Origin: an uncultured Gammaproteobacteria bacterium
GTDB taxonomy: Bacteria; Patescibacteriota; Patescibacteriia; S139-126
Assembly (NCBI GenBank): GCA_964493305.1
Contig: CAZBLW010000002.1
Coordinates: forward strand, 258,521 to 322,520
Length of the DNA: 64,000 nt
Direction: 5' to 3'
Below, in pieces: positions 2,959-63,885 of the stretch; position 1 is the first letter of the stretch; each line of letters starts with the position of its first letter. Under the pieces are notes generated by a model. The model saw only the letters and a program-made list of their open reading frames with translations. It was not told the DNA's origin and searched no databases. A program made the position numbers and the translations under genes.

Positions 2959-3930
2959 ATGATATTTAGTAAAAAGAAAAAAATTACGAAAGATTACATT
3001 TATCTCCTGGTGATATTAGGGTTGGTAATTTTCAATATATTTTGCTTGAGTAGATTATCCAATCCGGAAATTTTTATAGATAAATATGGAAAGTTGTATC
3101 CTTTTATTGATTTTTCCCGCAATTTTATACCGCAAGAGTTTTATTTGTCCAATCTGCAACCTTTGAGAAATAGTTTAAACGAACTAGTCAGCCAAGAACA
3201 GTCCCAAGGCAATCAAGTAAGTATTTATTTTGAGTATTTAAATACCGGCGGCAATATTTCCATCAATCAAAATTTGCAGCTGATTCCGGCCAGTCTCAAT
3301 AAACTACCAGTGGCGATGGCGGCGTTGGATAAAGTGGAAAAGGGTGAATGGTCTCTGACTGACAGGTTGGTATTATTGCCGGAAGATGTGGATTCTAATT
3401 TTGGCACATTACACCAAGAACCACTAAATAGCAGTTTTACCATAGAATTTTTACTGAAAGAGATGTTGCAAAAATCAGACAATACTGCTCTCAATATTTT
3501 ACTGAGAAATGTGACGGTTGACGGGGTGATAAAAATTTTAGATGAAATTGGTTTGCAGGAATTATTTGACGAGCGGGGAAATATTACGGCCAAAGAATAT
3601 TCGCAATTATTTCGTTCTTTATATACGGCAAATTTATTGAACCGCGAGTATTCGCAACTTTTATTGTCCTGGCTGACCCAGACCGAGTTTAATGAGTTTA
3701 TTTCCCATAATATTCCGGCAGAAGTTCCGGTGGCGCATAAGTTTGGTTTGAACATGGATTATTTGGTTTTTGCTGATTCCGGAATTGTCTATTTACCAAA
3801 CCAGCCTTACCTACTGACAGTTTTAGTCAATCCTGAAAACAGTATCACGGCCGATAGTGCTCTTGGGGAAGCTGGAGAAATAATGAATGAAATTTCAGTC
3901 ATTATTTATAAATTTTTAAATGAACAATAA
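2959..3930 (+). CDS. membrane-anchored class A beta-lactamase-like serine hydrolase (PenP/penicillin-binding fold)
   Basis: N-terminal TM helix. Motifs in class A order and spacing: S-x-x-K (ASLNKLPVAMAA), SDN (QKSDNTALNILL, compare SDNTAANLLL in TEM), a Glu-containing omega-loop-like TEFNEF, and KFG in place of KTG (VAHKFGLN). Confidence 0.65.
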   Translation: MIFSKKKKITKDYIYLLVILGLVIFNIFCLSRLSNPEIFIDKYGKLYPFIDFSRNFIPQEFYLSNLQPLRNSLNELVSQEQSQGNQVSIYFEYLNTGGNISINQNLQLIPASLNKLPVAMAALDKVEKGEWSLTDRLVLLPEDVDSNFGTLHQEPLNSSFTIEFLLKEMLQKSDNTALNILLRNVTVDGVIKILDEIGLQELFDERGNITAKEYSQLFRSLYTANLLNREYSQLLLSWLTQTEFNEFISHNIPAEVPVAHKFGLNMDYLVFADSGIVYLPNQPYLLTVLVNPENSITADSALGEAGEIMNEISVIIYKFLNEQ

Positions 3931-6900: not shown

Positions 6901-7903
6901 CGCTGGTTCCAATATTACTTTTACGGTTGATTGGTCAGATGCTGATGCCGGCGATTTAACCCGTTCGTTTATCTGTAAAACCAATTCCTTTACTTCCTCG
7001 ACACTTACTTGTGATGGTGGTTGGTGGTCATCAAGTACCGCATTCGCTACTACTGATCCGGTAGATGTTATTTATACTACCCAAGGAGGGGATATTGGCA
7101 CCAATAACTACTATGCTTTTACTTGTGATAATGACAATGCCTGTTCGTCTGGCAGTCCTGGTACTTTTGATGTCAATTCAGGTAATTCCGCCCCAACTAT
7201 AAATTCAGCTACTGATTATCCCGACCCAGTCAGTGTTGGCAGTGCAGTTACTTTCACAGTTAATTGGTCAGACGCTGACACTGGTGATTTAACGCGCACT
7301 TTTATTTGTAAAACCAATTCTTTTACTTCATCTACTTTGACTTGTGACGGCGGGTCTTGGGCGTCAAGTACATCTTTTAGCTCTATTAATATAACAGAAG
7401 TTTTCTATACCGCTTTACTAGGTGATTTAGGAACCAAAAACTATTTTGCATTTGTGTGTGATGATAGTAATGCTTGTTCCAATGGTAGTGCTGGTACTTT
7501 TACAGTGGTTAAGAGTGCACCAATTATAAATTCAGTTATTGATGCCCCTGATCCAGTAGTCGCTAGTAATAATATTACCTTTACAGTTAATTGGACTGAT
7601 CCGGAAGGGGACAATGCTAGGTCTTTTATTTGTAAAACCAATGTTATTACCACTTCAACCCTAACTTGTCCAGGTGGTTGGTATGCTTCCAGTACTTCCA
7701 TGGCTGCCACCAATCCAGTGCAAATATCCTATACCGCTCAAGCTGGGGATGCTGGACCTAGGAGTTATTATGCTTTTGTCTGTGATAGTGATAATAAATG
7801 TTCTACAGCTACAGTTGGTTCATTTTTGGTCAACTTAACTAGTTCAGTCAGTGGATATATTGAAGGGATATTCAATATCCTTGGTGATGTATTATTTAGA
7901 TAA
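3920..7903 (+). CDS. giant glycine-rich membrane-anchored surface protein. It has two ~370-aa Gly-rich modules (phage-tail-fibre-like glycine-rich domain) followed by four ~110-aa Cys-containing tandem repeats.
   Basis: 1327-aa ORF with an N-terminal TM. Each Gly-rich module starts WTVPxDWxNASNTIEVIGxGGAG..GGGGG(A)YSKS and ends GAPGIIIITYGY / GANGLIVITYVP. This matches the T-V-P...VIGGGGGG...RIIW architecture I recall for the phage tail-fibre glycine-rich domain. C-terminal repeats: DAPDPVNAGSNITFTVDWSD..RSFICKTNSFTSSTLTC..YYAFTCDNDNACSSGSPGTFTV, four copies. Confidence 0.75.
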   Translation: MNNNFKKIKYFFVPVLVFLMLITGIPLDVQLNERGRIVDTMYLAMKGQVNFSDFYFGNTARAETKTIILNFTQTILTEGNTWTVPLDWDNASNTIEVIGGGGAGWTDTAGTNGAGGGGGGAYSKSVNVTLSAGATVSYNIGNGGNVYSVNGGDTYFCNSTTNCASIGGSAVVVGAKGGLGAINATGAQGGATSTGVATGTGSVKYKGGNGGTGNGRGDSGGGGGGAAGPNGNGGNGGDGNSNTTYGHGGGGGGNGGGANGASVSGNPPSPNQSGAGGNNYLNTGGGAGVTSGDGTNGTAGGGGAGGFDSNDGGNGGDGQEWGEVGSGGGGGGTGDTSSTVGYGGDAGFYGAGGGGGLIGGRGAPGIIIITYGYNQPTKTIWTVPSDWNNASNTIEVIGAGGAGYTAVDSGGAAAGGGGGYSKSINVSLTANTQVAYQIGNGGRKNGRGSAIAGLSGGDTYFCNATSNCTTIAGSAVRVGAKGGTGGTSATTGGRTGGAAASGVAYANEVLNGSGSQKYSGGTGGAGTGTGDNGGGGGGAAGPNGNAGAGGSGTNTATYGGGGGGGAGGTACSGSPCAGSGPNTTTGGAGGNGPAGTGGGAGGNPGQNGGSGTGGGAGGGNNISGGGFGGSGSEWTIAGAGGGGGGVGDNSGAETTGGNGGLFGAGGGGGKWGGWGANGLIVITYVPAVFSQSAYRFFNNTNSTVVGAPFTTQNTTTTIPYNSQFRLRILIHVADAPLGTSGRDFKLQFVDMGTGTCAAPSGGSPSSYTDVTSTTAIAYFNNPTPVDGDALTSTTTDPTHSGHSLVNQTYEEANNFTNSQSQIDPDSYDGLWDFSLDDYNAEIGKTYCFRAVEANSKLLSSYNIYPAVTFINFPPTITSATDAPDPVNAGSNITFTVDWSDENADNTRSFICKTNSFTSSTLTCPGGAWASSTSFATTDPVDMVYTTQVADGGTNNYYAFTCDNDNACSSGSPGTFTVNRYPSITSVNDAPDPVNAGSNITFTVDWSDADAGDLTRSFICKTNSFTSSTLTCDGGWWSSSTAFATTDPVDVIYTTQGGDIGTNNYYAFTCDNDNACSSGSPGTFDVNSGNSAPTINSATDYPDPVSVGSAVTFTVNWSDADTGDLTRTFICKTNSFTSSTLTCDGGSWASSTSFSSINITEVFYTALLGDLGTKNYFAFVCDDSNACSNGSAGTFTVVKSAPIINSVIDAPDPVVASNNITFTVNWTDPEGDNARSFICKTNVITTSTLTCPGGWYASSTSMAATNPVQISYTAQAGDAGPRSYYAFVCDSDNKCSTATVGSFLVNLTSSVSGYIEGIFNILGDVLFR
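6538..7830 (+). repeat. four in-frame tandem repeats (~321-335 bp each) inside the 3920-7903 gene. Repeats 1 and 2 are almost identical at the nucleotide level.
   Basis: 'acgctcctgacccagtgaacgctggttccaatattacttttacggttgattggtcagatg' recurs at 6561 and 6882. Diverged copies start at ~7217 and ~7541. Confidence 0.8.
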
Positions 7904-40753: not shown

Positions 40754-40830
40754 TGGTCGGGGTGAGAGGACTTGAACCTCCGACCTCGTCGTCCCGAACG
40801 ACGCGCGCTAGCCAACTGCGCTACACCCCG
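40754..40830 (-). tRNA. tRNA-Pro (anticodon CGG), with encoded CCA
   Basis: Reverse complement CGGGGTG-TA-GCGC-AGTTGGCTA-GCGC-G-CGTCG-TTCGGGA-CGACG-AGGTC-GGAGG-TTCAAGT-CCTCT-CACCCCG-ACCA. Cloverleaf with a 7-bp acceptor, T-loop TTCAAGT, anticodon loop uuCGGga with G37. Confidence 0.85.
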
Positions 40831-43649: not shown

Positions 43650-43677
43650 AATTTAAAATCTATAGTCTTCAAAATAT

Positions 43678-43706
43678 AAAACCTCGGCATTTGCCGAGGT
43701 TTTTTA
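43678..43706 (+). terminator. rho-independent terminator
   Basis: aaacctcggcatttgccgaggtttttt. Confidence 0.75.
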
Positions 43707-43846
43707 GGGGATAGATTTGAGTAAGAAATAGGAAAGAATAATTACCAATTATTAATAACTAATTACTAAGCAATGATTAAATTTAAAAATTATCTAATTA
43801 GTAATTCATTAGTTATTAGTAATTAGAAATTAGTAATTAAAATATT

Positions 43847-43913
43847 TGTCATTCCGTGCTTGACACGGAATCTAAAAAATAAAAATGGATTCCTGCTTTC
43901 GCAGGAATGACAA
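43847..43913. repeat. MITE-like element, full copy
   Basis: tgtcattccgtgcttgacacggaatctaaaaaataaaaatggattcctgctttcgcaggaatgacaa. Confidence 0.7.
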
Positions 43914-44006
43914 TGATAAAAATTTAAAAATTTAGATTTATTTACAAATTTAAAAAATTTAAAATTGATTAGTTATTAGTAATTAGTCATTAGTAATTAA
44001 AACAGT

Positions 44007-44040
44007 TGTCATTCCTGATTTAGTCAGGAATCCAGAAACA
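44007..44040. repeat. MITE half-element
   Basis: tgtcattcctgatttagtcaggaatccagaaaca. Confidence 0.6.
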
Positions 44041-44051
44041 AAAATAAAAAT

Positions 44052-44250
44052 TTTATCTCTACTTTTTTGTTAACCTGCCTCGTCGGCAAGGCGGGCAAAA
44101 AAGTAACAAAAAATTGCGGCCAGTGCTTTGGTTCAGGCAAAATTGCCAATTCGCTCGTGTGTCTCTCAAAATCGCTAAACGCTTGAGTTGAGAGACTAAA
44201 TTCACTCGCTCCTTGGCAATATTTGCACTTCACAAATCAAATGGCCGAAT
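44052..44250. ncRNA. candidate structured RNA / conserved structured element, copy B
   Basis: Outer stem CGGCC...GGCCG. Inner stem gtctctcaa...ttgagagac, compensatory to copy A. The same aattgccaa...ttggcaat stem. Confidence 0.35.
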
Positions 44251-44359
44251 AAAAATAATAAGTTTTGAATTTAAATATTTGAATTTAGATATTATTTAGT
44301 ATTTAGTGCTTCGAATTTATAATTTCTTACATCTAGATTCAATATTCAAACTTCTAAAT

Positions 44360-44647
44360 TCAAGATTCACTTTCTTTTTCCACCAGCTCTTGGGAGGGGG
44401 AATATTTACGATTACGAATTTTCCACAAGTCAGAATACTGTCCCAGACCCTGTGTATAAAATTGGTTTTTACGACGGGTGCTTTTTTGCGACCATTCGAG
44501 AACTGAGGAAAAGTTTAATTTATATCTTCCTCTTACCACAATATATTTTATCTCTTGGTTTTTAATTGCCTGGCGGATGGTCTTACCGCTTACCCCAAAG
44601 AGGTGAGAAGCTTGGGTAATTGAAATACGAATAATTTTTTCTGTCAT
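44360..44647 (-). CDS. small helix-turn-helix DNA-binding protein (excisionase/MerR-like HTH)
   Basis: ITQASHLFGVSGKTIRQAIKNQEIKYIVVRGRYKL is the classic HTH_17/Xis-like arrangement. 95 aa. Confidence 0.5.
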   Translation of the reverse strand: MTEKIIRISITQASHLFGVSGKTIRQAIKNQEIKYIVVRGRYKLNFSSVLEWSQKSTRRKNQFYTQGLGQYSDLWKIRNRKYSPSQELVEKESES

Positions 44648-45030
44648 ATAAGTTATAGAATATTCTATACTTTATTGTATATTTTATACTTATTTTAGTC
44701 AAGATTTGTTACTTTTTTTTATAAAATTCGTATTTATGGTTAGGAGCGTTTAATATTTAAATCCCGTATTCTAAACATTATTTAATTTAATAATTAAATA
44801 ATTACTAATTCATTAGTAATTAATCATTAGTAATTAGTTATTATTCAGGGGCTATTTACATTTCCCAAACTATTAGCTAGTATAAGTTTATGCTAAATTT
44901 AGACTAATTTTCCCGAAAATTTATATAGTTTGTAGGGTTAATTAGTTTTTTTTATGGTTAATTTTATTTATTACTTGTAAATATTAAGCTTATTTAGTGT
45001 AATATATATTCCTTTTCTTCGTCTTATTAT

Positions 45031-55401: not shown

Positions 55402-57807
55402 ATGAGGAGAGAGAAACAAAACTTATTTTTGGTTTGTTTGGGTTATTTATTAGCCCGGATAAAGCTGTGTGTCCCAATTGTTGTTGGGATTTTTTTATTT
55501 TTGGCGGTAGCACCACCTGCTGAGGCTCAGTTTTTACCTCTAGTGACCATCACCGGGCAAGTAACAGATATAAATAGTGACAAACCACTATATAAAGCCA
55601 AGGTTATGGTGGTGCAACCTTGGGAAACTGAAGATTGTTTGACAGGTAATTATACAATTTTTGGTTGTTGGCAGGATAAACATGTAATTTCCGGCCTGGC
55701 TTATACAGATTTACAAGGCAATTATAAAGTTTATACTCATGATGCTTGGGTTGATATTTGGTTGATTGTTGAAATTTATGGTTATGATACTTATCAGGAA
55801 ACCAAAAATTATAACAATTATAACCATCTACTTGATATTGCTATGACTAAAAATCCGGAAATTTTAGATCCAGTGTTAATTGTGCCGGGGATTATGGCCA
55901 GTTGGAATCGGAACCTTTTAGATAAAAATTTAGAATACGCTGATGAGTGGGAGCTTGATCCGCATTTTCATACTTATGACGGTTTAATTGCTGATTTGGA
56001 AAATTATGGTGGCTATGTACAGGGTGAAACCTTGTTTACTTTTCCTTATGATTGGCGAAAATCAAATATTTTTACGGCCGAACTATTGCACGGTGAGATT
56101 CAAAAAATAAAAAATCAGACAGGCTCTCCTAGGGTTGATGTGGTAGCTCACTCGATGGGAGGATTAATAGCCAGACAGTATATCAGTACTAATTTATACC
56201 AATATGATATTGATCAGCTTATTTTCATCGCCACGCCCCAGCGTGGCGCGCCCAAAGCGTATTTGGCCTGGGAAGGAGGGTATTTGGGTACCACGGTAGT
56301 GTCAGACTTTATCAAAGAACTGTTGGTGGCAAAAATTGCCAAAACCGACGGGTACTGTGATTCTATTTTAGAAAGAAACAGGTGTGTTTATAACTATGTC
56401 CGAGGTTATCCCGTGTCAGCTTTGCACCAACTACTGCCGGACTATGACTATTTGCAATCAGGTATCACTGGAGAAGTATTTTCCTATCCGTCTAAACATC
56501 CTTATAGTAGTTTATTGTCAACGCTCAATGCCTGGTACAGTTTAGCTAAATTTTACAACTCCGGAGTAGAAGTAAGTACGATTTATAATTCTACTCCCAA
56601 TAGTACGGTCGGTACGATCCAAGTACTACCCAGAACTGATGAGCAAAAACCTTTTTGGTACTATGGTTATCCGGATGGGTTTTCTAGTTTGTTTCGGGAT
56701 AATGGCATGGTTTATACAGATGGTGATGAAACCGTTCCTTATTCCAGTGCGACTTTTATAAATAGTGAAAGATTTATTGCTAAATTAGATACAGATCATA
56801 CAAGAATAGTAAATAAATCTTCTAAGAATATATTAGAAATACTAAATAATCAATTTATTGATATCCAAGTAGTTGATCAGCCGGATGAATATATAATCGT
56901 GCAAGTGCATTCACCAGTGGATATTTTGGTCACTACACCCAGTGGCAAAAAAATCGGATATAATGCTCAGACCAATACTGATACCAATGAAATTAGCGGA
57001 GCGTATTATTCAGGATCAAGGGCTAGTAATGAATATATTCTGTTACCTGGTAAGGAAGCGGGGAATTATCAACTAGATTTAGTGGGTACTGGTGAAGGGG
57101 AATATCAGGTAGATATTAGTTTGGTTTCAGACAACGGTTTCGTAAGTCAGATTGTAGCTAGCACAACTCATATTGGTGAACAAACTAGAGTAGGAGCAAA
57201 ATTTGATTCAGGAGGTGTAGAAATAGTTGATTTGACTGATACTACTCCACCAGAGATAGTTATTAACTCCCCACAAAGTTTTGGCGAGTATGAAGCTCAT
57301 TTAGTACTGCCAATTGAGGTAAATGTAAGCGATGAAAATAGTGGGGTAGGTGAGGTAAAAATTTTAATTGATGGACAAGAGTATTTATCAGCAACTATTA
57401 ATCTATGGGATTGGTCATTTGAGAGACATGATTTGCAAGTAGTAGCGACTGATCTTGCAGGCAATCAGGCCGTCAAAGAAATACCTTTTTGGGTTTATGC
57501 CAATTTCAACAGTTTACGTGGCAGTATTGATAGATTGTGGCAAAGCGGTGATATAATAAATGAAGAAGTCAAGAATAAATTGTTATTGGAAGTTGATTGG
57601 TTGTATCGTTCTAAAGAGTTGGAAAAGTTGTTGGAAGAAAAAAATGAACCCCAAGGTGATAGTGTGTCAAATTGGCGCACCAGTATGTCAGATTATTTGA
57701 CTGATAAGTTAGTCAATCAAATGTATAATAAGAGTTATATTTCCCAGTTTGCTAAAGAAATTTTACTTAAACAATTTTATTTTGTAACTCGTAATATAAA
57801 ATTATGA
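55402..57807 (+). CDS. secreted alpha/beta-hydrolase (lipase / LCAT-PGAP1-like esterase) with an N-terminal CarboxypepD_reg-like beta-sandwich and C-terminal beta-rich domains
   Basis: Signal anchor. ITGQVTDINSDKPLYKAKVMVVQ (carboxypeptidase regulatory-like). Nucleophile elbow VDVVAHSMGGLIARQY (GHSMGG). 801 aa. Confidence 0.65.
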   Translation: MRREKQNLFLVCLGYLLARIKLCVPIVVGIFLFLAVAPPAEAQFLPLVTITGQVTDINSDKPLYKAKVMVVQPWETEDCLTGNYTIFGCWQDKHVISGLAYTDLQGNYKVYTHDAWVDIWLIVEIYGYDTYQETKNYNNYNHLLDIAMTKNPEILDPVLIVPGIMASWNRNLLDKNLEYADEWELDPHFHTYDGLIADLENYGGYVQGETLFTFPYDWRKSNIFTAELLHGEIQKIKNQTGSPRVDVVAHSMGGLIARQYISTNLYQYDIDQLIFIATPQRGAPKAYLAWEGGYLGTTVVSDFIKELLVAKIAKTDGYCDSILERNRCVYNYVRGYPVSALHQLLPDYDYLQSGITGEVFSYPSKHPYSSLLSTLNAWYSLAKFYNSGVEVSTIYNSTPNSTVGTIQVLPRTDEQKPFWYYGYPDGFSSLFRDNGMVYTDGDETVPYSSATFINSERFIAKLDTDHTRIVNKSSKNILEILNNQFIDIQVVDQPDEYIIVQVHSPVDILVTTPSGKKIGYNAQTNTDTNEISGAYYSGSRASNEYILLPGKEAGNYQLDLVGTGEGEYQVDISLVSDNGFVSQIVASTTHIGEQTRVGAKFDSGGVEIVDLTDTTPPEIVINSPQSFGEYEAHLVLPIEVNVSDENSGVGEVKILIDGQEYLSATINLWDWSFERHDLQVVATDLAGNQAVKEIPFWVYANFNSLRGSIDRLWQSGDIINEEVKNKLLLEVDWLYRSKELEKLLEEKNEPQGDSVSNWRTSMSDYLTDKLVNQMYNKSYISQFAKEILLKQFYFVTRNIKL

Positions 57808-58166
57808 AAAAAATATTTAAATTTATAGTAGTTTATTTAGTGATTATTGGCTTGGCAATAATTACTACTACTATAGGCAAAAATATTTACGGTTTATTTT
57901 TTCCGAGGCAATTAATGGCGGGTTGGGGCACATTTTTTACCCCAGGAATTATAGAAGGATTTGTTTTCATGTATTTATTTTGGCTAAGCACAGTATTTGT
58001 GCCGGTGTTTAAACAAAAGTGGTGGCAGTATGCTTTAGCACCGGGATTAATTGTTTGGTTACCAGTTGCACTGTTTTGGCCGGTAGGTTTGGTGGGGGTG
58101 ATATTTTGTGGAGTGGGGGTGGGATTGGGATATCTGGCGCTTTGGTTAAAGAGAAAAATAAGTTAA
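57804..58166 (+). CDS. small polytopic membrane protein, hypothetical. Overlaps the lipase gene stop (ATGA).
   Basis: 120 aa with 3-4 TM helices, translationally coupled. Confidence 0.5.
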   Translation: MKKIFKFIVVYLVIIGLAIITTTIGKNIYGLFFPRQLMAGWGTFFTPGIIEGFVFMYLFWLSTVFVPVFKQKWWQYALAPGLIVWLPVALFWPVGLVGVIFCGVGVGLGYLALWLKRKIS

Positions 58167-58198
58167 AAGTTTGTAAAATAATAAAGTTTATAAAGTAT

Positions 58199-58282
58199 TG
58201 TCATCCCTGACTTAATCAGGGATCCAGAAAAAAAATAAGATGGACTCTTGATATTTCGCTGACGCAAAATTCAGGAATGACA
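58199..58282. repeat. MITE-like element, degenerate second half
   Basis: tgtcatccctgacttaatcagggatccagaaaaaaaataagatggactcttgatatttcgctgacgcaaaattcaggaatgaca. Confidence 0.6.
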
Positions 58283-58301
58283 CTTAGAATAAAATAAAAA
58301 A

Positions 58302-58589
58302 ATGAAAGAGTATTTTGTATATATTATGGCCAGTAATAAAAATGGCACATTGTATATAGGTGTAACTTCAGATTTGAAGAAAAGGATATATGAACATAAA
58401 AATGATTTAGTACCAGGTTTTACCAATAGATATAAAGTACACAATTTGGTTTATTTTGAAGTAATCAATGACATCAGAGAAGCATTACTTAGAGAAAAAA
58501 GATTAAAAAAATGGAAAAGAGAATGGAAGATTAAGTTAATTGAAAAAAATAACCCAAGTTGGAAAGATTTATATGAAGGTTTATTTTAG
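58302..58589 (+). CDS. GIY-YIG nuclease-superfamily small protein (UPF0213/YhbQ-like)
   Basis: YFVYIMASNKNGTLYIGVTSDLKKRIYEHKN (G-T-L-Y-I-G ... R...H). 95 aa. Confidence 0.8.
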   Translation: MKEYFVYIMASNKNGTLYIGVTSDLKKRIYEHKNDLVPGFTNRYKVHNLVYFEVINDIREALLREKRLKKWKREWKIKLIEKNNPSWKDLYEGLF

Positions 58590-58596
58590 ATTTTTT

Positions 58597-58745
58597 GGAT
58601 TCCTGCCTACGCAGGAATGACAAGGAAAGAACTTATTGTCATTCCGTGCTTGACACGGAATCTAAAAAAATAAAAATGGATTCCTGCCTACGCAGGAATG
58701 ACATGGGAGAATGGATTTCTGCTGAAGTTTATCCCGCACTTGATG
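58597..58745. repeat. cluster of MITE pieces: a second-half fragment (58597-58623), a full copy (58637-58703) and a truncated fragment (58704-58745)
   Basis: ggattcctgcctacgcaggaatgaca ... ttgtcattccgtgcttgacacggaatctaaaaaaataaaaatggattcctgcctacgcaggaatgaca ... ggatttctgctgaagtttatcccgcacttgatg. Confidence 0.65.
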
Positions 58746-58860
58746 TCAAAATGAAAATTTCATTTAATTAGGATTTGTTTATAAAATTAGAAAATTTATT
58801 TACAACTTGTGATTTGGAAATTCTAATTTTTTTGAAAAATTAGACCTGTGGATAACTTTA

Positions 58861-58890
58861 TTGCCTTACGTTAAAATTAATTGCTATAAT
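58861..58890 (+). promoter_or_regulatory. sigma-70-like promoter (TTGCCT, 18 nt spacer, TATAAT) driving a short transcript
   Basis: ttgccttacgttaaaattaattgctataat. Confidence 0.45.
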
Positions 58891-58896
58891 ATTAGC

Positions 58897-58979
58897 GTAA
58901 AAGTGGATTTAATATTGAGTGAGAGTTTCACATATACTCTTAGGGGAGAGGAACGCCGCGCTGCAGCACGGCGTTTTTT
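58897..58979 (+). ncRNA. candidate ~83-nt small RNA bounded by a promoter and an intrinsic terminator
   Basis: No ORF. Internal gagtgagag / ctcttagg pairing. Terminator acgccgcgctgcagcacggcgtttttt at 58953-58979. Confidence 0.35.
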
Positions 58980-59149
58980 GATACAAAAAAAACAGACAGA
59001 CGTCTGATTTAGTTAAAAGTTAGTAAAGTTTGTAAAGTTAGAAAGTATAGATGATTTAAGATTTAAGATTTATGATTTAAGAATATTCATAAATCATACT
59101 TCATATGTCATAAATCTGGTAAATTATTTATAATTTACAATTTATAATT

Positions 59150-60292
59150 TTACCGAAGGTATATTTCTTTGGTTTTACTAATCATATTCTCGATATTGAT
59201 TTGTTTTCTCACTCGAGAAAGTTGTTGTTCATCAAGTGGGGTTTGATTGATAAGTTCAGAAATGGTTTGGGTAAGTGCCGCGGTGTCATTTGGTTCTACG
59301 AGGCGATAATGAGTTTGCGGATAAAATTCCAGCATTTCAAAAATACCTCCCACCCGGGTGGCTACAATCGGTAACCCTTGAGCCATAGCCTCCAGTAGAG
59401 TATAAGGTAAACCTTCTTTGACTGAAGGTAAAACAAAGATATCAAAAGCCGAAAGATAGTTTTTGGCATTTTGTATACTACCCAGTAAAAAAACTTTACT
59501 TTCCAGTTTTTTTTGCTTGATCATAACTTGTAAATTTTTCTTTTCCGGGCCTTCACCAATGATGGTAAAGATAGTATCAGAATTTGTTTTAATAATTGTC
59601 TCTGCAGCGGTAATCAGGGCTGGGAGATTTTTGGTGGGATAAAGGTTGGCTATGGAGCCAATGAAGAATTTGGCAGTTGCTAGTTGTAAATTTCCCGATA
59701 TAGATAATAGTTTTTCTCTGGCTAGTTGTTTGGTAAGATTGGAAGTATGGTTGATATCAATACCGTTGTGAATTGTCACAATCTTTGCCATGGGAAATTT
59801 ATTGAGCCGGGCGGCGGAGCGATCGTATTCTGATACACAGATTACTTTGTTTTTATGAAGCGCAGAAAATTTCTCTGCCCAGAGATATAGTTTTTTCAAA
59901 CCTTCAGCAATTGGTTCCAAAAATACCCAACCGTGGGCAGTGTAGATAACTTTTTTATTTAAGCCCCAAGCGGCTAGCGATCCTAAAATACTTATCTTAC
60001 TGCTATTTAAATGGATAATATCAGGATTTAGGTTTTTGATTAGCTTTCTAATCTCAAATATTGCCAGCAAGTCAAAATGAGGTAAAATTGAACGTTTAAC
60101 ATATTTCAGTTGATACCAAGGAATTGAGTTGTCTTTCAATTTCAAAGGTAGCCAATCAGTATTGATTCCACCCGAGGCAACTGAGATATCAAGCTCATCT
60201 TTTAAGTGAGTAGCTAAATCAAGTACATAAGCTTGGGCGCCACCTGCTTCGGGTAAAGTAATCAAGTATAAGATTTTATTTTTTGTTGACAC
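59150..60292 (-). CDS. glycosyltransferase family 4 (GT-B, retaining)
   Basis: EGLPYTLLEAMAQGLPIVATRVGG (E-x7-E motif region) and N-terminal GGAQAYVLDLA. 380 aa. Confidence 0.8.
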   Translation of the reverse strand: MSTKNKILYLITLPEAGGAQAYVLDLATHLKDELDISVASGGINTDWLPLKLKDNSIPWYQLKYVKRSILPHFDLLAIFEIRKLIKNLNPDIIHLNSSKISILGSLAAWGLNKKVIYTAHGWVFLEPIAEGLKKLYLWAEKFSALHKNKVICVSEYDRSAARLNKFPMAKIVTIHNGIDINHTSNLTKQLAREKLLSISGNLQLATAKFFIGSIANLYPTKNLPALITAAETIIKTNSDTIFTIIGEGPEKKNLQVMIKQKKLESKVFLLGSIQNAKNYLSAFDIFVLPSVKEGLPYTLLEAMAQGLPIVATRVGGIFEMLEFYPQTHYRLVEPNDTAALTQTISELINQTPLDEQQLSRVRKQINIENMISKTKEIYLR

Positions 60293-60396
60293 AAAAATTA
60301 ATTATAAATTATTAATTGTAAATTATAAATGAATTTTCAATTATTCAATTCAAAAATTTTATAATTGATTTAAAATTGATAATTTAAAATTTAAAA
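60293..60396. repeat. AT-only tandem tract of ATAAATT / TTATAAATT units (representative of about 13 such intergenic tracts)
   Basis: aattaattataaattattaattgtaaattataaatgaatttt.... Similar tracts at 2298-2340, 20815-20860, 37024-37092, 40935-40975, 46598-46690, 51944-51990, 52360-52420, 54610-54660, 55030-55080, 59130-59160, 61168-61282, 62965-63000. Confidence 0.7.
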
Positions 60397-61167
60397 TTAT
60401 TTTAGTAATTTCTTAACTAGATATCTAACTACGCGACGTAAGTAAGCACCCAAAAATCCAGAATAATCTTTTCTGTATTTCACAATCAAACTGATATTCA
60501 TCTTCATCATAGCAAGGATTTTTTGCTTGGTCACGTTGCTAGAGTGCTTTCGGTATTTGGTCATATATTCTGGCAGATTGCCAATTTTCCACATCACTGC
60601 CATCCGTAACCACAGATCATAATCTTCCAAAAAAGGTAAACTCTCATCATAACCTTTCAAATGATCAATTCCAGCCGTACGCATCAAAACACTTGAGTGG
60701 GCCAGAGGATTTTTGTAGAGAATTGATTGTTTAATTTTTGCTGAATCGGTTTGGTTTTGGTAGCGGTTTATTTCCTGGCTTTGTTCATCAATTACAATCA
60801 CGCCGGTGCCAACCACCGCACAATCAGGGTGAGTGTCTAGATATTCAATTTGTTTAGCAAGTTTTTCTTGGTCAGACCATAAGTCATCACTATCAAGTAC
60901 TGCTAAAAATTCTCCTTTGGCAGCTTTTAGGCCGATGTTGCGCGCGGCACTAATACCAGGATCGGTTTCATTTTTGATATAAATAAAACGTTTATCATCT
61001 TTGGCTAATTCGGTGATGATTTTTTCATTAGCATCATAATCACCATTGTCCACGACAATAAGTTCCCAATCAGTCAGGGTTTGATTTTTTACACTTTGAA
61101 TCATCTCAGGGAGGAATTTTTCCCGCCCTTGGTGGGTAAGGGTGATAATGGAAACCTTGGGTAACAT
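60397..61167 (-). CDS. glycosyltransferase family 2
   Basis: VSIITLTHQGREKFLPEMIQSVKNQT..ELIVVDNGDYD..LAVLDSDD (GT-A DxD). 256 aa. Confidence 0.8.
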   Translation of the reverse strand: MLPKVSIITLTHQGREKFLPEMIQSVKNQTLTDWELIVVDNGDYDANEKIITELAKDDKRFIYIKNETDPGISAARNIGLKAAKGEFLAVLDSDDLWSDQEKLAKQIEYLDTHPDCAVVGTGVIVIDEQSQEINRYQNQTDSAKIKQSILYKNPLAHSSVLMRTAGIDHLKGYDESLPFLEDYDLWLRMAVMWKIGNLPEYMTKYRKHSSNVTKQKILAMMKMNISLIVKYRKDYSGFLGAYLRRVVRYLVKKLLK

Positions 61168-61282
61168 AAAATAATTTTGTAATTTTATAATTTTGTAATT
61201 TTTAAATAATTTTTAATTTTAAATGTTTAAAAATTTAAGTTTATGATTTATTTATAAAATTCAATAATTAAAAATTAAAAAT

Positions 61283-62122
61283 TTATAAAACATCCCATTC
61301 TTGCGGTAGTAGATGCTGGTAGTGCCCCTGGTATTTATTGTTCCATTTTTTGGGAGCAATGACAATTTTATTTGTATTTTGGTTTAAGTAAGCTGCCCAC
61401 CAGGAAAAAGTACTATTTGATATAATTTGGTGCTGGCATTGGCTCATCAATATCAACTCTTGTGTAGCTTCACTATTTTTTTCCGGTGAAACATATATAT
61501 TCTGTCCGTTGGTTTTTAAATTTGTTTTAACCCAAGCAATGTCATCTGAAAAAATGAAGAATATAGGATTTGTTATTTTTGTATTTATTAACTCCAGTGC
61601 TTTTTTAAAATAATCAATATTTATGGTTTGGTGAATCGATTTTATTTTTTGATTGTCAGCAAAGTCACCCCGTCTGATGTGGATAGCAACTGAATTTGAA
61701 TTTTTTATTTGACTGCTAATTTGTTGATAATAATCAGTAAACGGATTTTTCAAAGTGATTTCTTGTAGTAATTTATCTTTGATAGGATCAAGATATAGAT
61801 AGCTTTGCCAGTAGCCTTCAAAATAGTTTTTTTGCGAAGTTAACAAATGCGGTTGCCAACCAATATTAAATTCACGAAATATTTTTTGTTTGAAAAATCT
61901 GGCAAAAGCCGAGGGTGCGTACTTTTGTATTTCCTCTGTACTAGCAATTCCTGTTTTAATATTAAATTTATCCAAAACATACTTTCGTTTGGTATCTTTG
62001 GCACTTCCCATAGAAGATATATCCAATTTGAGTTGCTCGTTTCTTTTATTTGCTAAAAACCTTCCAAAGCCGTATTGGAAGAGTTGATTACCTAAACCTC
62101 CTTTTAATTTTACAATTAACAT
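61283..62122 (-). CDS. alpha-1,2-fucosyltransferase (GT11 family)
   Basis: The N-terminal LKGGLGNQLFQYGFG matches the GT11 signature (GGLGNQMFQYA). HxRRGD-like IHIRRGDF motif present. 279 aa. Confidence 0.75.
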   Translation of the reverse strand: MLIVKLKGGLGNQLFQYGFGRFLANKRNEQLKLDISSMGSAKDTKRKYVLDKFNIKTGIASTEEIQKYAPSAFARFFKQKIFREFNIGWQPHLLTSQKNYFEGYWQSYLYLDPIKDKLLQEITLKNPFTDYYQQISSQIKNSNSVAIHIRRGDFADNQKIKSIHQTINIDYFKKALELINTKITNPIFFIFSDDIAWVKTNLKTNGQNIYVSPEKNSEATQELILMSQCQHQIISNSTFSWWAAYLNQNTNKIVIAPKKWNNKYQGHYQHLLPQEWDVL

Positions 62123-62155
62123 ATTTGGTTAGCTTATAGCTGTCAGCTTTTAATT

Positions 62156-62881
62156 TTATTTAATAAACCAAAAACACCCGCAATCATAATTTCCTAATCT
62201 CAAATTATTAACATCAGGATTTTTTAGCATTGGACCATGGTATTCGGGGATAAGGCTAAATTCATGCAAACTTAAATCAGAAAATAGATTTTTTATCATT
62301 TCATAAGTATAAATCCGGTGGGCATTGAACATAATTTTTGCCTTTTTGCCAATAGGAACAACAAAGAGTAAATTTCCCCCAGGTGCTAAAACCCTGACCA
62401 ACTCTTTGATCGCTTTAATATCACCTTCAGGATCAAGTTGATCACCATAACGCCTTAAGCCAATATGTTCCACTGTGTGCATACAAGAAAGGGAGGAGAC
62501 ACTATTATCAGGCCAAGGAAGTTTCGTAATATCAATAGATTTAGTATTGAGATTTGAAAGTTGTAAATCAGCCGGTCTATAGTCATAGAAATCAACTGGC
62601 ACAAAAGCTGAAACAATTCCAGAAAAGTATAAGCTAGAAGCAATATCAATATGTTTTACCGGATTGATTTCTTTGACACATCTTGCTGCCCAAGCGGTGT
62701 GATAAATATAATGTCTATCAAAACCAGTAAGTATAGTTTTATCAAACGGTTGGGGATAGAAGTCTTTTAGTTGTGTAGAAAACCTTTTTTCCTTGTCTAT
62801 ATTTTTGAAATTTTTAAAATCCTGCCAAATCAAAGGAGTCAGCAACGTGTTTCTAATTAGTTTGTAGAGTTTTTTTAACAT
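62156..62881 (-). CDS. putative SAM-dependent methyltransferase-like protein (DUF268-like), in the glycan operon
   Basis: 241 aa. Rossmann-like stretch VRVLAPGGNLLFVVPIG. Assignment to DUF268 is from memory and tentative. Confidence 0.35.
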   Translation of the reverse strand: MLKKLYKLIRNTLLTPLIWQDFKNFKNIDKEKRFSTQLKDFYPQPFDKTILTGFDRHYIYHTAWAARCVKEINPVKHIDIASSLYFSGIVSAFVPVDFYDYRPADLQLSNLNTKSIDITKLPWPDNSVSSLSCMHTVEHIGLRRYGDQLDPEGDIKAIKELVRVLAPGGNLLFVVPIGKKAKIMFNAHRIYTYEMIKNLFSDLSLHEFSLIPEYHGPMLKNPDVNNLRLGNYDCGCFWFIK

Positions 62882-62889
62882 TTTTTTCT

Positions 62890-62962
62890 TGTCATTCTCG
62901 CGTAAGCGGGAATCCAGAAAGAATTTTTTATTTCTAGATTCCGTATCAAGTACGGAATGACA
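62890..62962. repeat. MITE-like element inside the minus-strand glycan operon (between two co-directional genes)
   Basis: tgtcattctcgcgtaagcgggaatccagaaagaattttttatttctagattccgtatcaagtacggaatgaca. Confidence 0.65.
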
Positions 62963-62985
62963 GTTAATTTATTTATAATTTAAAA

Positions 62986-63885
62986 TTAATAATTTATAAT
63001 TTTAAGGAATTTTTCAGCACTCTTTTTGTGCGTAAAATTTTCTAAAGCGTATTCACGTGGACTAAAGCTTTTTAAATTATTTAACATTTGTTCTAGCTTT
63101 ATTCCAAATTCTTCAATAGAACTAAAAAATATTCCACATTTATCAGTCAAGTAGGGACTGGAAATTTTTTTATCAGTCCAGCTGTATTCATTGTACTGCC
63201 ATTTGCCTGGATTCCAAACCAGTGTGGTTACATCACATATCCAGGCTTCTTGCTGGGCAATGCCTTGGCTTTCTGATTGAGTAAGAAATATGGCTAGTTT
63301 TGTTTGTTTTAATTTATTAAAATAGTCAGTTTGTTTGTATTTACCGTAAGTTATAATATCAATTTTATTATTTTCAATTTTTAATTTTTGGATAATTTTA
63401 TTTAACAGATCATTCGGTGCGTTTTTTTGATAAATCAAAATAGTGTCACGTTTATTAATCGGAGTTGGTTCACCTGGATTATCAACGCCAGCTGGCCAAA
63501 TATATATTTTATTTTGTAAAACAGGGGATTGACTGAGCCAAAAATCTTTAACCCATTGCGAAGGTACTAAAATTTTATCTATCAATGGATTGGTTGATAA
63601 ATTCCCAAAATCATTTGGTGTAACAGCAATATTTGGTCCAGCTAGAAGCTGTTTGATTTTCCCTTGTTTTTTTTGATCAATCGCATAACTTAGTGCTTTG
63701 GGATTTTGTAAAACAGCTACTGTATCAGTAAAATAGTTTGGATTAAATAGATAATTAAAATTCAATTCAGCTAATCCTTTTTGTAAACTTGTAGCTACCA
63801 TCTGAGGACCTCGCGCTGGTCTTAAGATCTCCTTTATATAATCAATTGGGGATAATGGTGGTTTAGTTAGTAGGGTGAGATCCAT
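62986..63885 (-). CDS. hypothetical protein of the surface-glycan operon (possibly a glycosyltransferase-associated protein)
   Basis: 299-aa ORF, co-directional and tightly linked with the GT genes. No motif recognised. Confidence 0.45.
   Translation of the reverse strand: MDLTLLTKPPLSPIDYIKEILRPARGPQMVATSLQKGLAELNFNYLFNPNYFTDTVAVLQNPKALSYAIDQKKQGKIKQLLAGPNIAVTPNDFGNLSTNPLIDKILVPSQWVKDFWLSQSPVLQNKIYIWPAGVDNPGEPTPINKRDTILIYQKNAPNDLLNKIIQKLKIENNKIDIITYGKYKQTDYFNKLKQTKLAIFLTQSESQGIAQQEAWICDVTTLVWNPGKWQYNEYSWTDKKISSPYLTDKCGIFFSSIEEFGIKLEQMLNNLKSFSPREYALENFTHKKSAEKFLKIINY

What the first reader, a model, noticed from the sequence alone, without database searches (positions are those of the whole stretch)
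58861..58979. Stand-alone promoter-to-terminator unit encoding a candidate ~83-nt sRNA
Seen: TTGCCT, 18 nt spacer, TATAAT at 58861-58890. About 83 nt downstream there is a strong intrinsic terminator (acgccg-cgctgcagca-cggcgt + T6) at 58953-58979. There is no ORF in between (gtaaaagtggatttaatattgagtgagagtttcacatatactcttaggggagaggaacgccg...). It lies in a repeat-rich gap between the GIY-YIG gene and the 3' end of the convergent glycosyltransferase operon.
Basis: seen in the sequence. Interest (0 to 1): 0.55.

Follow-up and report, generated by a model that had tools for sequence, protein, structure and literature searches.

The report
Conserved orphan small-RNA gene in Patescibacteria
A short promoter-to-terminator unit with no protein-coding potential sits between two converging operons of an uncultivated Patescibacteria (CPR) bacterium and is kept in the same place in four related lineages, so it is most likely a lineage-specific ~83-nt small RNA gene of unknown target; this is a solid but ordinary kind of find.

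Summary
An extended -10 promoter (TGCTATAAT, 58882-58890; weak -35 TTGCCT) lies about 60 nt upstream of a strong hairpin plus T6 (58953-58979), with no conserved ORF between them.

None of these motifs exceeds chance in this AT-rich DNA on its own. Comparison with relatives supplies the evidence. The unit is present at the same syntenic position, just past the 3' end of the convergent GT4 glycosyltransferase gene, in 7 loci representing 5 lineages, including Ca. Paceibacter sp.

Conservation has the shape of a transcription unit. TTGnTATAAT is kept and only n varies. The start region GCGwAAAAG, the 3' body UAUAACUCUU-GGRGAGAGG and the terminator are 0.89-0.97 identical. The promoter spacer and the RNA 5' half are at the neutral level (0.47-0.55).

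The terminator shows one compensatory C-G to U-A change. A second hairpin followed by T8 on the minus strand terminates the glycosyltransferase operon.

No Rfam family matches. No copy was found in metagenome or viral scans, and no target was found. More distant relatives have only a terminator.

A DnaA-box-like element (CTGTGGATAAC) sits at about -45. The same box plus TGGTATAAT precedes secreted-protein genes in two distant Patescibacteria.

Verdict: a real, conserved candidate sRNA gene; expression and function are untested. It is a new member of a known kind.

The parts
58844..58856 (+). Upstream box ACCTGTGGATAAC, about -53 to -41. It contains a perfect DnaA-box 9-mer (TTATCCACA on the minus strand, 58847-58855). 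Probable transcription-factor site.
   Evidence: Mean pairwise identity is 0.89 across 5 lineages. The 9-mer is TGTGGATAA in 5 loci and TGTGGAAAA in 2. CTGTGGATAAC-N28-TGGTATAAT also precedes secreted-protein genes in L032 and L039. Only 3 perfect DnaA boxes occur in the window and they are not clustered.
58861..58866 (+). -35-like hexamer TTGCCT, 18-nt spacer to the -10.
   Evidence: Weakly conserved: TTGCTG, TTGTCG and TTATTC in relatives. The spacer region is 0.55 identical.
58882..58890 (+). Extended -10 promoter element TGCTATAAT.
   Evidence: TTGnTATAAT is invariant in 7 loci; only n varies (C/T/G). Block identity is 0.93.
58895..58903 (+). Conserved start region GCGTAAAAG. The predicted transcription start is at G58895-G58897.
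   Evidence: ATTAGCGwAAAAG is conserved in all loci, identity 0.89. The start position is inferred from its distance to the -10.
58897..58979 (+). Predicted non-coding RNA of about 83 nt.
   Evidence: Covariance model R1 finds exactly 7 instances (95-104 bits) in 0.98 Mb of Patescibacteria DNA and none elsewhere. No Rfam family matches. There is no conserved ORF.
58904..58931 (+). Variable 5' half of the RNA. At least four sequence types exist among lineages, and no conserved structure is predicted.
   Evidence: Identity is 0.47. MFE folds differ between lineages. In L099 vs L112 the patch is 0.55 identical against 0.91 in the flanks, p = 1.4e-6.
58932..58953 (+). Conserved 3' body AUAUACUCUU-AGGGGAGAGGAA. 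A small hairpin is possible: CUCU(U)/(G)AGAG around 58937-58950.
   Evidence: The hairpin can form in all 7 loci. The 'covariation' reported for it is a register slide of a CU/AG repeat, not real covariation.
58953..58979 (+). Intrinsic terminator of the plus strand: hairpin 1 (58953-58974) plus T6 (58974-58979).
   Evidence: Energy is -17 to -21 kcal/mol in all loci. Identity is 0.92. There is a compensatory C-G to U-A change in L112/L113, and C.A becomes U-A in L007.
58980..58992 (.). GATAC plus A8 spacer between the two hairpins. The A8 is the T8 tract of the minus-strand terminator.
   Evidence: The T-run, GATAC and A-run block is 0.97 identical, the most conserved block of the region.
58993..59006 (-). 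Hairpin 2 (CAGACGTCTGTCTG on the minus strand) followed by T8: the terminator of the convergent glycosyltransferase operon.
   Evidence: The sequence varies while pairing is kept. In 4 of 8 loci an A.C mismatch on the plus strand is a G.U pair on the minus strand, so it folds better on the minus strand (-4.3 against -1.3 kcal/mol).

Best explanation
This is an independent gene for a small non-coding RNA of about 83 nt, specific to a narrow Patescibacteria clade (Ca. Paceibacter and relatives).

Proposed working:
- An extended -10 promoter (TGnTATAAT) starts transcription at about 58895-58897. It probably receives input from a factor bound to the CTGTGGATAAC box at about -45.
- The strong hairpin plus U tract at 58953-58979 stops transcription before it can run into the converging glycosyltransferase operon. 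That operon has its own terminator (hairpin 2 plus T8) on the other strand.
- The RNA has an AU-rich, fast-evolving 5' half and a conserved 3' module (UAUAACUCUU, the purine tract GGRGAGAGG, then the terminator hairpin).
- I take it to act in trans as a regulatory RNA. The conserved, largely unpaired UAUAACUCUU/GGAGAGG segment would be the functional surface, either base-pairing with mRNAs or binding a protein.

Shown: the sequence elements, their conservation pattern, non-coding status, and the strand assignment of the two terminators.
Inferred: promoter activity, the start site, the RNA's existence in cells, and all of its mode of action.
For: 1. The elements are present.
2. The unit keeps the same syntenic position in 7 loci from 5 lineages whose adjacent GT4 proteins are only 79-84% identical. 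Fourfold-degenerate sites in that gene are 0.34-0.55 identical, which is near saturation.
3. Block identities follow promoter logic. The box is 0.89, the spacer 0.55, TTGnTATAAT 0.93 with only n varying, and the start region 0.89. The 5' half is 0.47, the terminator 0.92 and the inter-hairpin spacer 0.97. The spacer and the 5' half serve as internal neutral controls.
4. The terminator has one true compensatory pair and one mismatch-to-pair change.
5. Hairpin 2 is selected as a minus-strand RNA structure, so hairpin 1 with T6 is a dedicated plus-strand terminator.
6. The unit stays attached to the end of the GT operon whatever is inserted upstream: GIY-YIG, an IVP gene, an HTH/toxin pair or repeats. 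It is therefore not just the terminator of one particular upstream gene.
7. The same box plus TGGTATAAT lies in front of real genes in L032 and L039, which supports a genuine promoter architecture.
8. There is no conserved ORF: 1-nt indels occur and the start codon is not conserved.
9. The reverse-strand -10-like hexamers are not conserved in L006 (read directly from the sequence).
Against: - There is no expression evidence of any kind.
- Apart from the terminator there is no real covariation, so no RNA structure is proven.
- Half of the RNA body is unconserved.
- No target complementarity was found in the 64-kb window or conserved across loci.
- The family is tiny. Relatives with 69-72% GT identity lack the promoter and have only a terminator directly after the 119-aa gene.
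- The intergenic region is a recombination mosaic. Flanks are 0.84 identical between the window and L007, and 0.91 between L099 and L112. Part of the 'conservation' may therefore be recent exchange rather than selection.
- Only five lineages are available.
Confidence: 0.55

Rival explanations
1. A terminator module with an incidental promoter. The selected function is the back-to-back pair of terminators that insulates two converging operons. The short plus-strand transcript is then a by-product with no function of its own, or the promoter serves only as a local transcriptional barrier.
For: - The most conserved blocks are hairpin 1 and the T6-GATAC-A8 spacer, at 0.92-0.97.
- More distant relatives (L104, L106, L107) have only a conserved hairpin preceded by GGAGAG and flanked by A/T runs between the same genes, with no promoter.
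- The purine tract pairs with the U tract like the A tract of a bidirectional terminator.
- In 4 loci hairpin 1 is equally good or slightly better on the minus strand, where C.A becomes G.U.
Against: - This reading does not explain the conservation of TTGnTATAAT with only n varying, of the box, or of the start region, while the spacer between them drifts to 0.55.
- On the minus strand hairpin 1 is followed by UUCCUCUCC, a poor U tract, and that strand already has its own hairpin 2 plus T8.
- The segment UAUAACUCUU upstream of the terminator is also conserved.
Confidence: 0.25
2. A cis-acting antisense or interference element. The promoter fires towards the glycosyltransferase operon, and regulated read-through of hairpin 1 produces antisense RNA or colliding polymerases that tune the operon. 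The short RNA is the terminated default product, as with lambda oop or the PR'-tR' StxS transcript.
For: - The orientation is convergent and the linkage to the GT operon's 3' end is constant in all 7 loci.
- Hairpin 2 is a weak structure on the plus strand and is not followed by a T run there, so a read-through transcript would continue.
- PMC7547250 describes a short terminated transcript that doubles as a regulatory RNA (listed; abstract only read).
Against: - Hairpin 1 is strong (-17 to -21 kcal/mol with U5-6).
- There is no upstream sequence complementary to its 5' arm, so no antiterminator structure can form (read directly from the sequence).
- The terminated RNA does not overlap the GT coding region or its terminator.
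Confidence: 0.08
3. A DNA-level element rather than a gene. Candidates are a DnaA or other protein-binding site, a recombination or insertion target at a convergence point that may be the replication terminus, or the border of a small mobile element.
For: - The conserved box contains a perfect DnaA-box 9-mer.
- Gene orientation switches exactly here, and GC skew is positive up to about 60 kb and near 0 after.
- The spot just upstream is an insertion hot spot and the region is a recombination mosaic.
Against: - DnaA boxes are not clustered: there are 3 perfect ones in 64 kb, and 32 with up to 1 mismatch against 25.3 expected.
- No dif-like 28-mer lies in or next to this intergenic region; the best matches to four known dif sites (at most 20 of 28) are elsewhere in the window.
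- The partial palindrome around the -10 is not conserved, because its variable position is the n of TGn.
- The unit is single-copy in the window and in 0.98 Mb of loci.
- Similarity between the two ends of the unit is weak (read directly from the sequence).
Confidence: 0.07
4. A very small protein or leaderless micro-ORF is encoded between the promoter and the terminator.
For: - A mechanical ORF exists (58861-59007), and a GTG at 58903 is in frame with it.
- This genome does not use Shine-Dalgarno sequences, so the absence of one is not an argument against an ORF.
Against: - The start codon is not conserved: GTG in the window is GTA, GAA or GTT in relatives.
- Single-nucleotide indels occur within the region.
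- The ORF would have to read through the terminator hairpin.
Confidence: 0.02

Closest known systems
Stand-alone, Rho-independently terminated trans-acting sRNAs of about 70-110 nt with a regulated promoter. Envelope-linked examples recalled from my own knowledge: RybB, MicA, OmrA/B.
   Same: Own promoter with an upstream factor site, a body of about 55 nt, a GC-rich terminator hairpin plus U tail, non-coding, intergenic, and conserved only within a narrow clade. The location next to envelope (glycosyltransferase and surface-protein) genes also fits.
   Different: There is no sequence or structure homology to any Rfam family. In the classic cases the seed is the best-conserved part; here the 5' half is the least conserved. 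No chaperone or target is known. The host is a Patescibacteria genome with no Shine-Dalgarno usage, so the usual occlusion of the ribosome-binding site may not apply.
Phage lambda oop RNA and the PR'-tR' short transcript StxS (PMC7547250).
   Same: A promoter followed almost at once by a strong terminator yields a transcript of about 80 nt, oriented against or next to a neighbouring gene.
   Different: oop overlaps its target gene; this RNA ends about 170 nt before the GT coding region, and the operon's own terminator lies between them. No antitermination apparatus or phage context is present (no hit in the viral-contig scan or the phage collection).
Back-to-back or bidirectional intrinsic terminators between convergent operons.
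   Same: Hairpin 1 plus T6 on the plus strand and hairpin 2 plus T8 on the minus strand, separated by GATAC. More distant relatives have a single A/T-flanked hairpin at the same place.
   Different: A plain terminator does not explain the conserved promoter, start region and pre-terminator segment 60-130 nt upstream.
Weak Rfam hits over the region: Leu_leader (RF00512), SorY (RF02651), RefA1 (RF02842).
   Same: Only the terminator-like hairpin plus U tract is shared.
   Different: Scores are 20.9, 18.0 and 14.1 bits against gathering scores of 50, 111 and 94. These are chance-level terminator matches, not membership.

Membership tests
Any Rfam 15 RNA family | Covariance-model score at or above the family's gathering threshold | tested here: not met
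   The only gathering-level hit in the window is tRNA-Pro at 40757-40830. The best hit over the unit is Leu_leader at 20.9 bits against a threshold of 50. There are no hits in the six related loci.
Intrinsic (Rho-independent) terminator | GC-rich stem, short loop, and an immediately following U tract on the transcribed strand | tested here: met
   The stem has 8 pairs and a TGCA loop and runs into T6, at -17.3 kcal/mol. It is conserved with one compensatory change. Termination activity itself is not testable here.
Sigma-70-type extended -10 promoter | TGn immediately upstream of a TATAAT-like hexamer; the -35 is dispensable | tested here: met
   TGCTATAAT lies at 58882-58890. TTGnTATAAT is invariant in 7 loci except for n. 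Promoter activity is not testable with these tools.
Trans-acting base-pairing sRNA | Independent, non-coding transcript conserved in relatives | tested here: met
   The non-coding and conserved criteria are met. Existence of the transcript was not testable.
Trans-acting base-pairing sRNA | Conserved seed with complementarity to target mRNAs | tested here: inconclusive
   No convincing or conserved complementarity was found in the window or in the relatives' loci. Only 64 kb of the genome, and 4-13 kb per relative, could be searched.
Trans-acting base-pairing sRNA | Dependence on an RNA chaperone (Hfq, ProQ or similar) | not tested
CsrA/RsmA-sequestering RNA | Several GGA motifs presented in loops or single-stranded regions, in a genome that has CsrA | tested here: inconclusive
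   There are 2-3 GGA motifs in the GGRGAGAGGA tract, one of them in the loop of the small hairpin in L007 and L099. That is far fewer than in known sponges. The presence of csrA was not tested.
Small-protein or type I toxin gene | An ORF with a conserved start and reading frame | tested here: not met
   The start codon is not conserved and frame-breaking 1-nt indels occur.
Chromosomal dif site or replication-terminus element | A 28-bp XerC/XerD site with two inverted arms around a 6-bp centre | tested here: not met
   No dif-like 28-mer lies in or next to this intergenic region. The best matches to four known dif sequences (at most 20 of 28) are elsewhere in the window. The partial palindrome around the -10 is not conserved.

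The most novel reading that the evidence does not exclude
The unit belongs to a Patescibacteria-specific regulon defined by a DnaA-box-like operator (CTGTGGATAAC) about 45 nt upstream of extended -10 promoters. This regulon would co-control major secreted or surface proteins (as in L032 and L039) and this small RNA. The RNA would combine a conserved 3' scaffold with a rapidly exchanged 5' 'specificity' segment (four allele types, with at least one allele swap between otherwise 91%-identical loci). In a translation system that lacks Shine-Dalgarno sequences, it would act by a mechanism other than classic occlusion of the ribosome-binding site.
Probability: 0.1. Interest if true: 0.6.

Novelty: new member of a known kind. 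Interest (0 to 1): 0.35.

Why it matters
My literature searches found nothing on promoters, transcription start sites or regulatory RNAs in Patescibacteria/CPR. These are ultra-small, mostly uncultivated episymbionts with few recognisable regulators. A comparatively validated orphan sRNA gene would give metatranscriptome studies a concrete, testable locus. So would a recurring promoter architecture, an operator-like box plus an extended -10. The finding also gives a first handle on gene regulation around the envelope-glycosylation and surface-protein loci that mediate host contact. The RNA is confined to a few species and its function is unknown, so the immediate impact is modest.

Tried and rejected
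- **Rfam.** I scanned the window at gathering thresholds, the region with permissive E-values, and six related loci. Nothing matched.
- **Metagenome scan.** The pattern GGAGAGG-N0-2-ACGCCG-N9-13-CGGCGTTTT gave 13 hits, all GC-rich chance matches.
- **Viral and phage searches.** The viral-contig scan for the 25-mer and the blastn search of the phage collection found nothing.
- **Same-strain contigs.** L003-L005 are 100% identical to the window and therefore uninformative.
- **Small-ORF hypothesis.** Rejected because of indels and the non-conserved start.
- **Shine-Dalgarno decoy or anti-SD seed.** This looks unlikely because none of 35 ORFs has a Shine-Dalgarno sequence.
- **Target searches.** I tried RNAduplex against 35 start regions, exact 10-mer complementarity, conserved-block complements across loci, and cognate-locus complementarity of the variable segment. 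They gave only AT-rich chance matches and no orthologous sites.
- **dif or terminus site.** No dif-like 28-mer lies in or next to this intergenic region; the best matches to four known dif sites are weak and elsewhere in the window.
- **oriC.** Rejected: the genes converge here and DnaA boxes are not clustered.
- **Mobile element with terminal inverted repeats.** The two ends of the unit resemble each other only weakly (read directly from the sequence).
- **Conserved 5' hairpin.** MFE folds differ between lineages. Only AU-rich pairings that could arise by chance are shared.
- **Covariation in the small CUCU/AGAG hairpin.** This is an alignment-register artefact.
- **Secreted proteins behind the box promoter.** The window holds no homologue of the L032/L039 proteins.

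Full report
**1. The observation**

- TTGCCT lies at 58861-58866. After 18 nt comes TATAAT at 58885-58890. The TATAAT is preceded by TGC, so the element is an extended -10 (TGCTATAAT, 58882-58890).
- The terminator is ACGCCGCGC-TGCA-GCACGGCGT (58953-58974), running into T6 (58974-58979).
- It folds at -17.3 kcal/mol. G-U and A-U pairs between the preceding purine tract and the U tract extend the stem.
- A start about 7 nt after the -10 gives an RNA of about 83 nt.
- The only ORF here is mechanical: a TTG start inside the -35 box, 48 aa, reading through the terminator.

Taken alone, none of these motifs exceeds chance in this 34%-GC DNA.
- Promoter-like sites: 33 against 25.8 +/- 5.0 expected.
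- Terminator-like sites: 8 against 3.8 +/- 1.8.
- TGNTATAAT: 10 against 6.7 +/- 2.8.

**2. Organism and context**

The closest genomes are Patescibacteria/CPR MAGs.
- One is Ca. Paceibacter sp. DYGA01 (L006); the other is CAZUKA01 (L007). Both carry a GT4 glycosyltransferase about 82-83% identical to the window's.
- Upstream on the plus strand are an LCAT-like alpha/beta hydrolase (55402-57807), a 120-aa membrane protein (57804-58166) and a GIY-YIG gene (58302-58589), followed by hairpin repeats.
- Downstream on the minus strand is a GT4-GT2-GT11-methyltransferase operon.
- Short-read assemblies of the same strain break at the repeats and are 100% identical over the unit.

**3. Relatives**

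I took homologues of the GT4 protein and of the 120-aa protein and fetched their contigs.
- The unit is present in 7 distinct loci from 5 lineages: the window, L007, L099, L006/L101 and L112/L113. It always lies just past the 3' end of the GT4 gene and converges on it.
- An eighth contig, L103, ends inside hairpin 1.
- What lies upstream differs between lineages. L007 has GIY-YIG plus a split HigB-like ORF and an XRE/HigA-like gene. L099, L112 and L113 have a 23S_rRNA_IVP-family gene. L006 and L101 have only hairpin repeats.
- The unit therefore travels with the end of the GT operon, not with any one upstream gene.

**4. Footprint**

In the adjacent GT4 gene, fourfold-degenerate sites are only 0.34-0.55 identical between lineages, which is near saturation. 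Within the unit, mean pairwise identities over five lineages are as follows.

| Block | Identity |
|---|---|
| CCCTGTGGATAA box | 0.89 |
| -35 region and spacer | 0.55 |
| TTGnTATAAT | 0.93 |
| ATTAGCGwAAAAG | 0.89 |
| RNA 5' half | 0.47 |
| TATAACTCTT | 0.78 (lowered by a 1-nt misalignment) |
| Hairpin 1 | 0.92 |
| T6-GATAC-A7/8 | 0.97 |
| Hairpin 2 | 0.83 |
| Downstream | 0.48 |

- In TTGnTATAAT the only variable base is n (C, T or G). That is what a TGn extended -10 under selection should show.
- The spacer and the 5' half act as internal neutral controls, so the conserved blocks are under constraint.
- The -10-like hexamers on the reverse strand are not conserved in L006. This fixes the orientation as plus.

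**5. Structure**

- RNAalifold and covariance model R1 support only a small CUCU/AGAG hairpin and the terminator.
- The terminator has one genuine compensatory change (C-G to U-A in L112/L113). In L007 a C.A mismatch becomes U-A.
- The 'double changes' reported for the small hairpin come from a register slide of a CU/AG repeat. I discount them.
- The 5' half folds differently in each lineage.
- R1 finds the 7 known instances at 95-104 bits. It finds nothing else in 0.98 Mb of Patescibacteria loci or in the rest of the window.

**6. Two terminators, one per strand**

- Hairpin 2 (58993-59006) varies in sequence while keeping its pairing.
- In four loci it has an A.C mismatch on the plus strand, which is a G.U pair on the minus strand. 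It is followed by T7-8 on the minus strand. It is therefore the terminator of the GT operon.
- Hairpin 1 plus T6 is then a dedicated plus-strand terminator.

**7. What more distant relatives show**

- In L104/L105, L106 and L107 (GT 69-72% identical) the same gene pair converges, but there is no promoter and no RNA body.
- They carry only a conserved AAAAGGAGAGAnAAAAAG-GTCCCGCCAACCAGCGGGA hairpin with T runs, directly after the 119-aa gene or a GIY-YIG gene.
- The likely history is that an ancestral inter-operon terminator, already preceded by GGAGAG, gained a promoter and a body of about 55 nt in the Paceibacter-like clade. This history is an inference.
- It also keeps alive the rival reading that the terminator is the main selected function.

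**8. The promoter box**

- The conserved box contains a perfect DnaA-box 9-mer, TTATCCACA, on the minus strand.
- DnaA boxes are not clustered here and the genes converge, so this is not an origin of replication.
- The same CTGTGGATAAC followed by 28 nt and TGGTATAAT occurs in two distant Patescibacteria (L032, L039). There it lies after a terminator and a palindrome, and 150-190 nt upstream of a gene for a signal-peptide protein.
- In the window the distance is 25 nt.
- This supports a genuine, factor-controlled promoter architecture. It rests on only two independent promoter families.

**9. Function**

- The unit is non-coding, because relatives lack the start codon and carry 1-nt indels.
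- This genome shows no Shine-Dalgarno sequence upstream of any of 35 ORFs. The purine tract GGRGAGAGG is therefore neither an ordinary ribosome-binding site nor an obvious decoy for one.
- Searches for targets found nothing convincing or orthologous. I searched the window, the relatives' loci and the cognate loci of each variable allele.
- I therefore commit only to 'independently transcribed small regulatory RNA, probably trans-acting through its conserved 3' module', at 0.55.
- The rivals are a terminator module with a by-product transcript (0.25), cis antisense or read-through control of the GT operon (0.08), a DNA-level element (0.07) and a micro-ORF (0.02).

**10. An unexplained feature**

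- The intergenic region is a recombination mosaic.
- L099 and L112 are 0.91 identical over 395 flanking columns but only 0.55 identical in the RNA 5' half (Fisher p = 1.4e-6). The L112 allele resembles the window's allele.
- L112 and L113 are identical up to hairpin 2. They then differ for about 100 nt of the GT 3' UTR.
- One allele swap does not prove diversifying selection. It is the basis of the more novel 'specificity segment' reading, to which I give 0.1.

**11. Comparison and novelty**

- In architecture this is a classic stand-alone sRNA gene with a Rho-independent terminator.
- It belongs to no Rfam family. It has no counterpart in the viral contigs, in the phage collection or in the one metagenome scan I was allowed.
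- The literature library held nothing on Patescibacteria promoters or sRNAs.
- I rate it a new member of a known kind, with interest 0.35.

Noticed in passing
window 58904-58931; L099 and L112 (alignment): The RNA 5' half is a mosaic patch. L099 and L112 are 0.55 identical there but 0.91 identical over 395 flanking columns (p = 1.4e-6). The L112 allele resembles the window's. L112 and L113 are identical up to hairpin 2, then differ for about 100 nt of the GT 3' UTR. The intergenic region exchanges short cassettes between lineages.
   Followed up: partly
L032 9879-9926 (-) and L039 9192-9239 (-): The same CTGTGGATAAC box, 28 nt and TGGTATAAT recur in two distant Patescibacteria. The motif lies downstream of a terminator and a palindrome, and 150-190 nt upstream of a gene for a signal-peptide, Thr/Gly/Ala-rich secreted protein. 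This may be a shared operator-plus-extended -10 promoter type in the phylum.
   Followed up: partly
window 58720-58771 (ORF 58595-58771); L007 7498-7788 (-): The window keeps only the last ~50 nt (...ALDVKMKISFN*) of an XRE/HigA-like HTH gene. That gene is intact (96 aa) in L007, next to a HigB-like toxin split into two ORFs. A toxin-antitoxin pair has been eroded here.
   Followed up: partly
window 58170-58300, 58596-58706 and 43849-43913: The GIY-YIG gene is embedded in short hairpin repeats (GTCATTCC...GGAATGAC type). A 65-nt block at 58639-58703 recurs nearly identically at 43849-43913. Short-read contigs of the same strain end exactly in these repeats. One repeat gives a sub-threshold Rfam hit to Francisella FtrB (32.6 bits against a gathering score of 66).
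   Followed up: partly
between the 120-aa gene and the box, in the window, L007, L099, L101, L106, L112 and L113: This spot is an insertion hot spot. It holds GIY-YIG genes, 23S_rRNA_IVP/bAvd-like four-helix-bundle genes, a toxin-antitoxin pair or only hairpin repeats, depending on the lineage. The RNA unit stays fixed next to the GT operon throughout.
   Followed up: partly
window, 22 nt upstream of 35 ORF starts: No Shine-Dalgarno-like sequence precedes any ORF. At least one gene (ATG 41054) sits about 10 nt after a TGGTATAAT and so looks leaderless. The GGRGAGAGG tract in the RNA is thus one of very few SD-like strings in the region.
   Followed up: partly
window 1-64000, switch at 58600-59150: All ORFs of at least 120 aa from 137 to 58166, and the 95-aa GIY-YIG gene after them, are on the plus strand apart from a few that lie inside or overlap longer plus-strand ORFs. 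All from 59150 to 63885 are on the minus strand. GC skew is positive up to about 60 kb and near zero after. This could be the replication terminus. No dif-like site lies in or next to the switch region.
   Followed up: partly
L104 4123-4313, L106 1770-1996, L107 4012-4250 (reverse strand): More distant relatives share a perfectly conserved AAAAGGAGAGAnAAAAAG + GTCCCGCCAACCAGCGGGA hairpin + T run, preceded by TGAT(n)AAATT. It could be a bidirectional terminator, or a very short (~40-nt) transcript of its own.
   Followed up: no
window 59007-59142: An AT-rich stretch lies between hairpin 2 and the GT stop codon. It contains a 32-nt imperfect inverted repeat (59053-59116). It is about 88% identical in L007 and partly so in L103, far above the synonymous-site identity of the adjacent gene. 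The other lineages have an unrelated AT-rich 'TTAGTAATTA'-type sequence in its place.
   Followed up: no
window 4001-6000 (inside ORF 3920-7903): A compositional outlier: GC 0.52 and GC skew 0.335, against about 0.37 and 0.1 elsewhere.
   Followed up: no
window 43650-45030: A 1.4-kb gene-poor intergenic region with hairpin repeats, a GC-rich stretch at 44060-44240 and a small minus-strand ORF. No Rfam hit reached gathering level.
   Followed up: no
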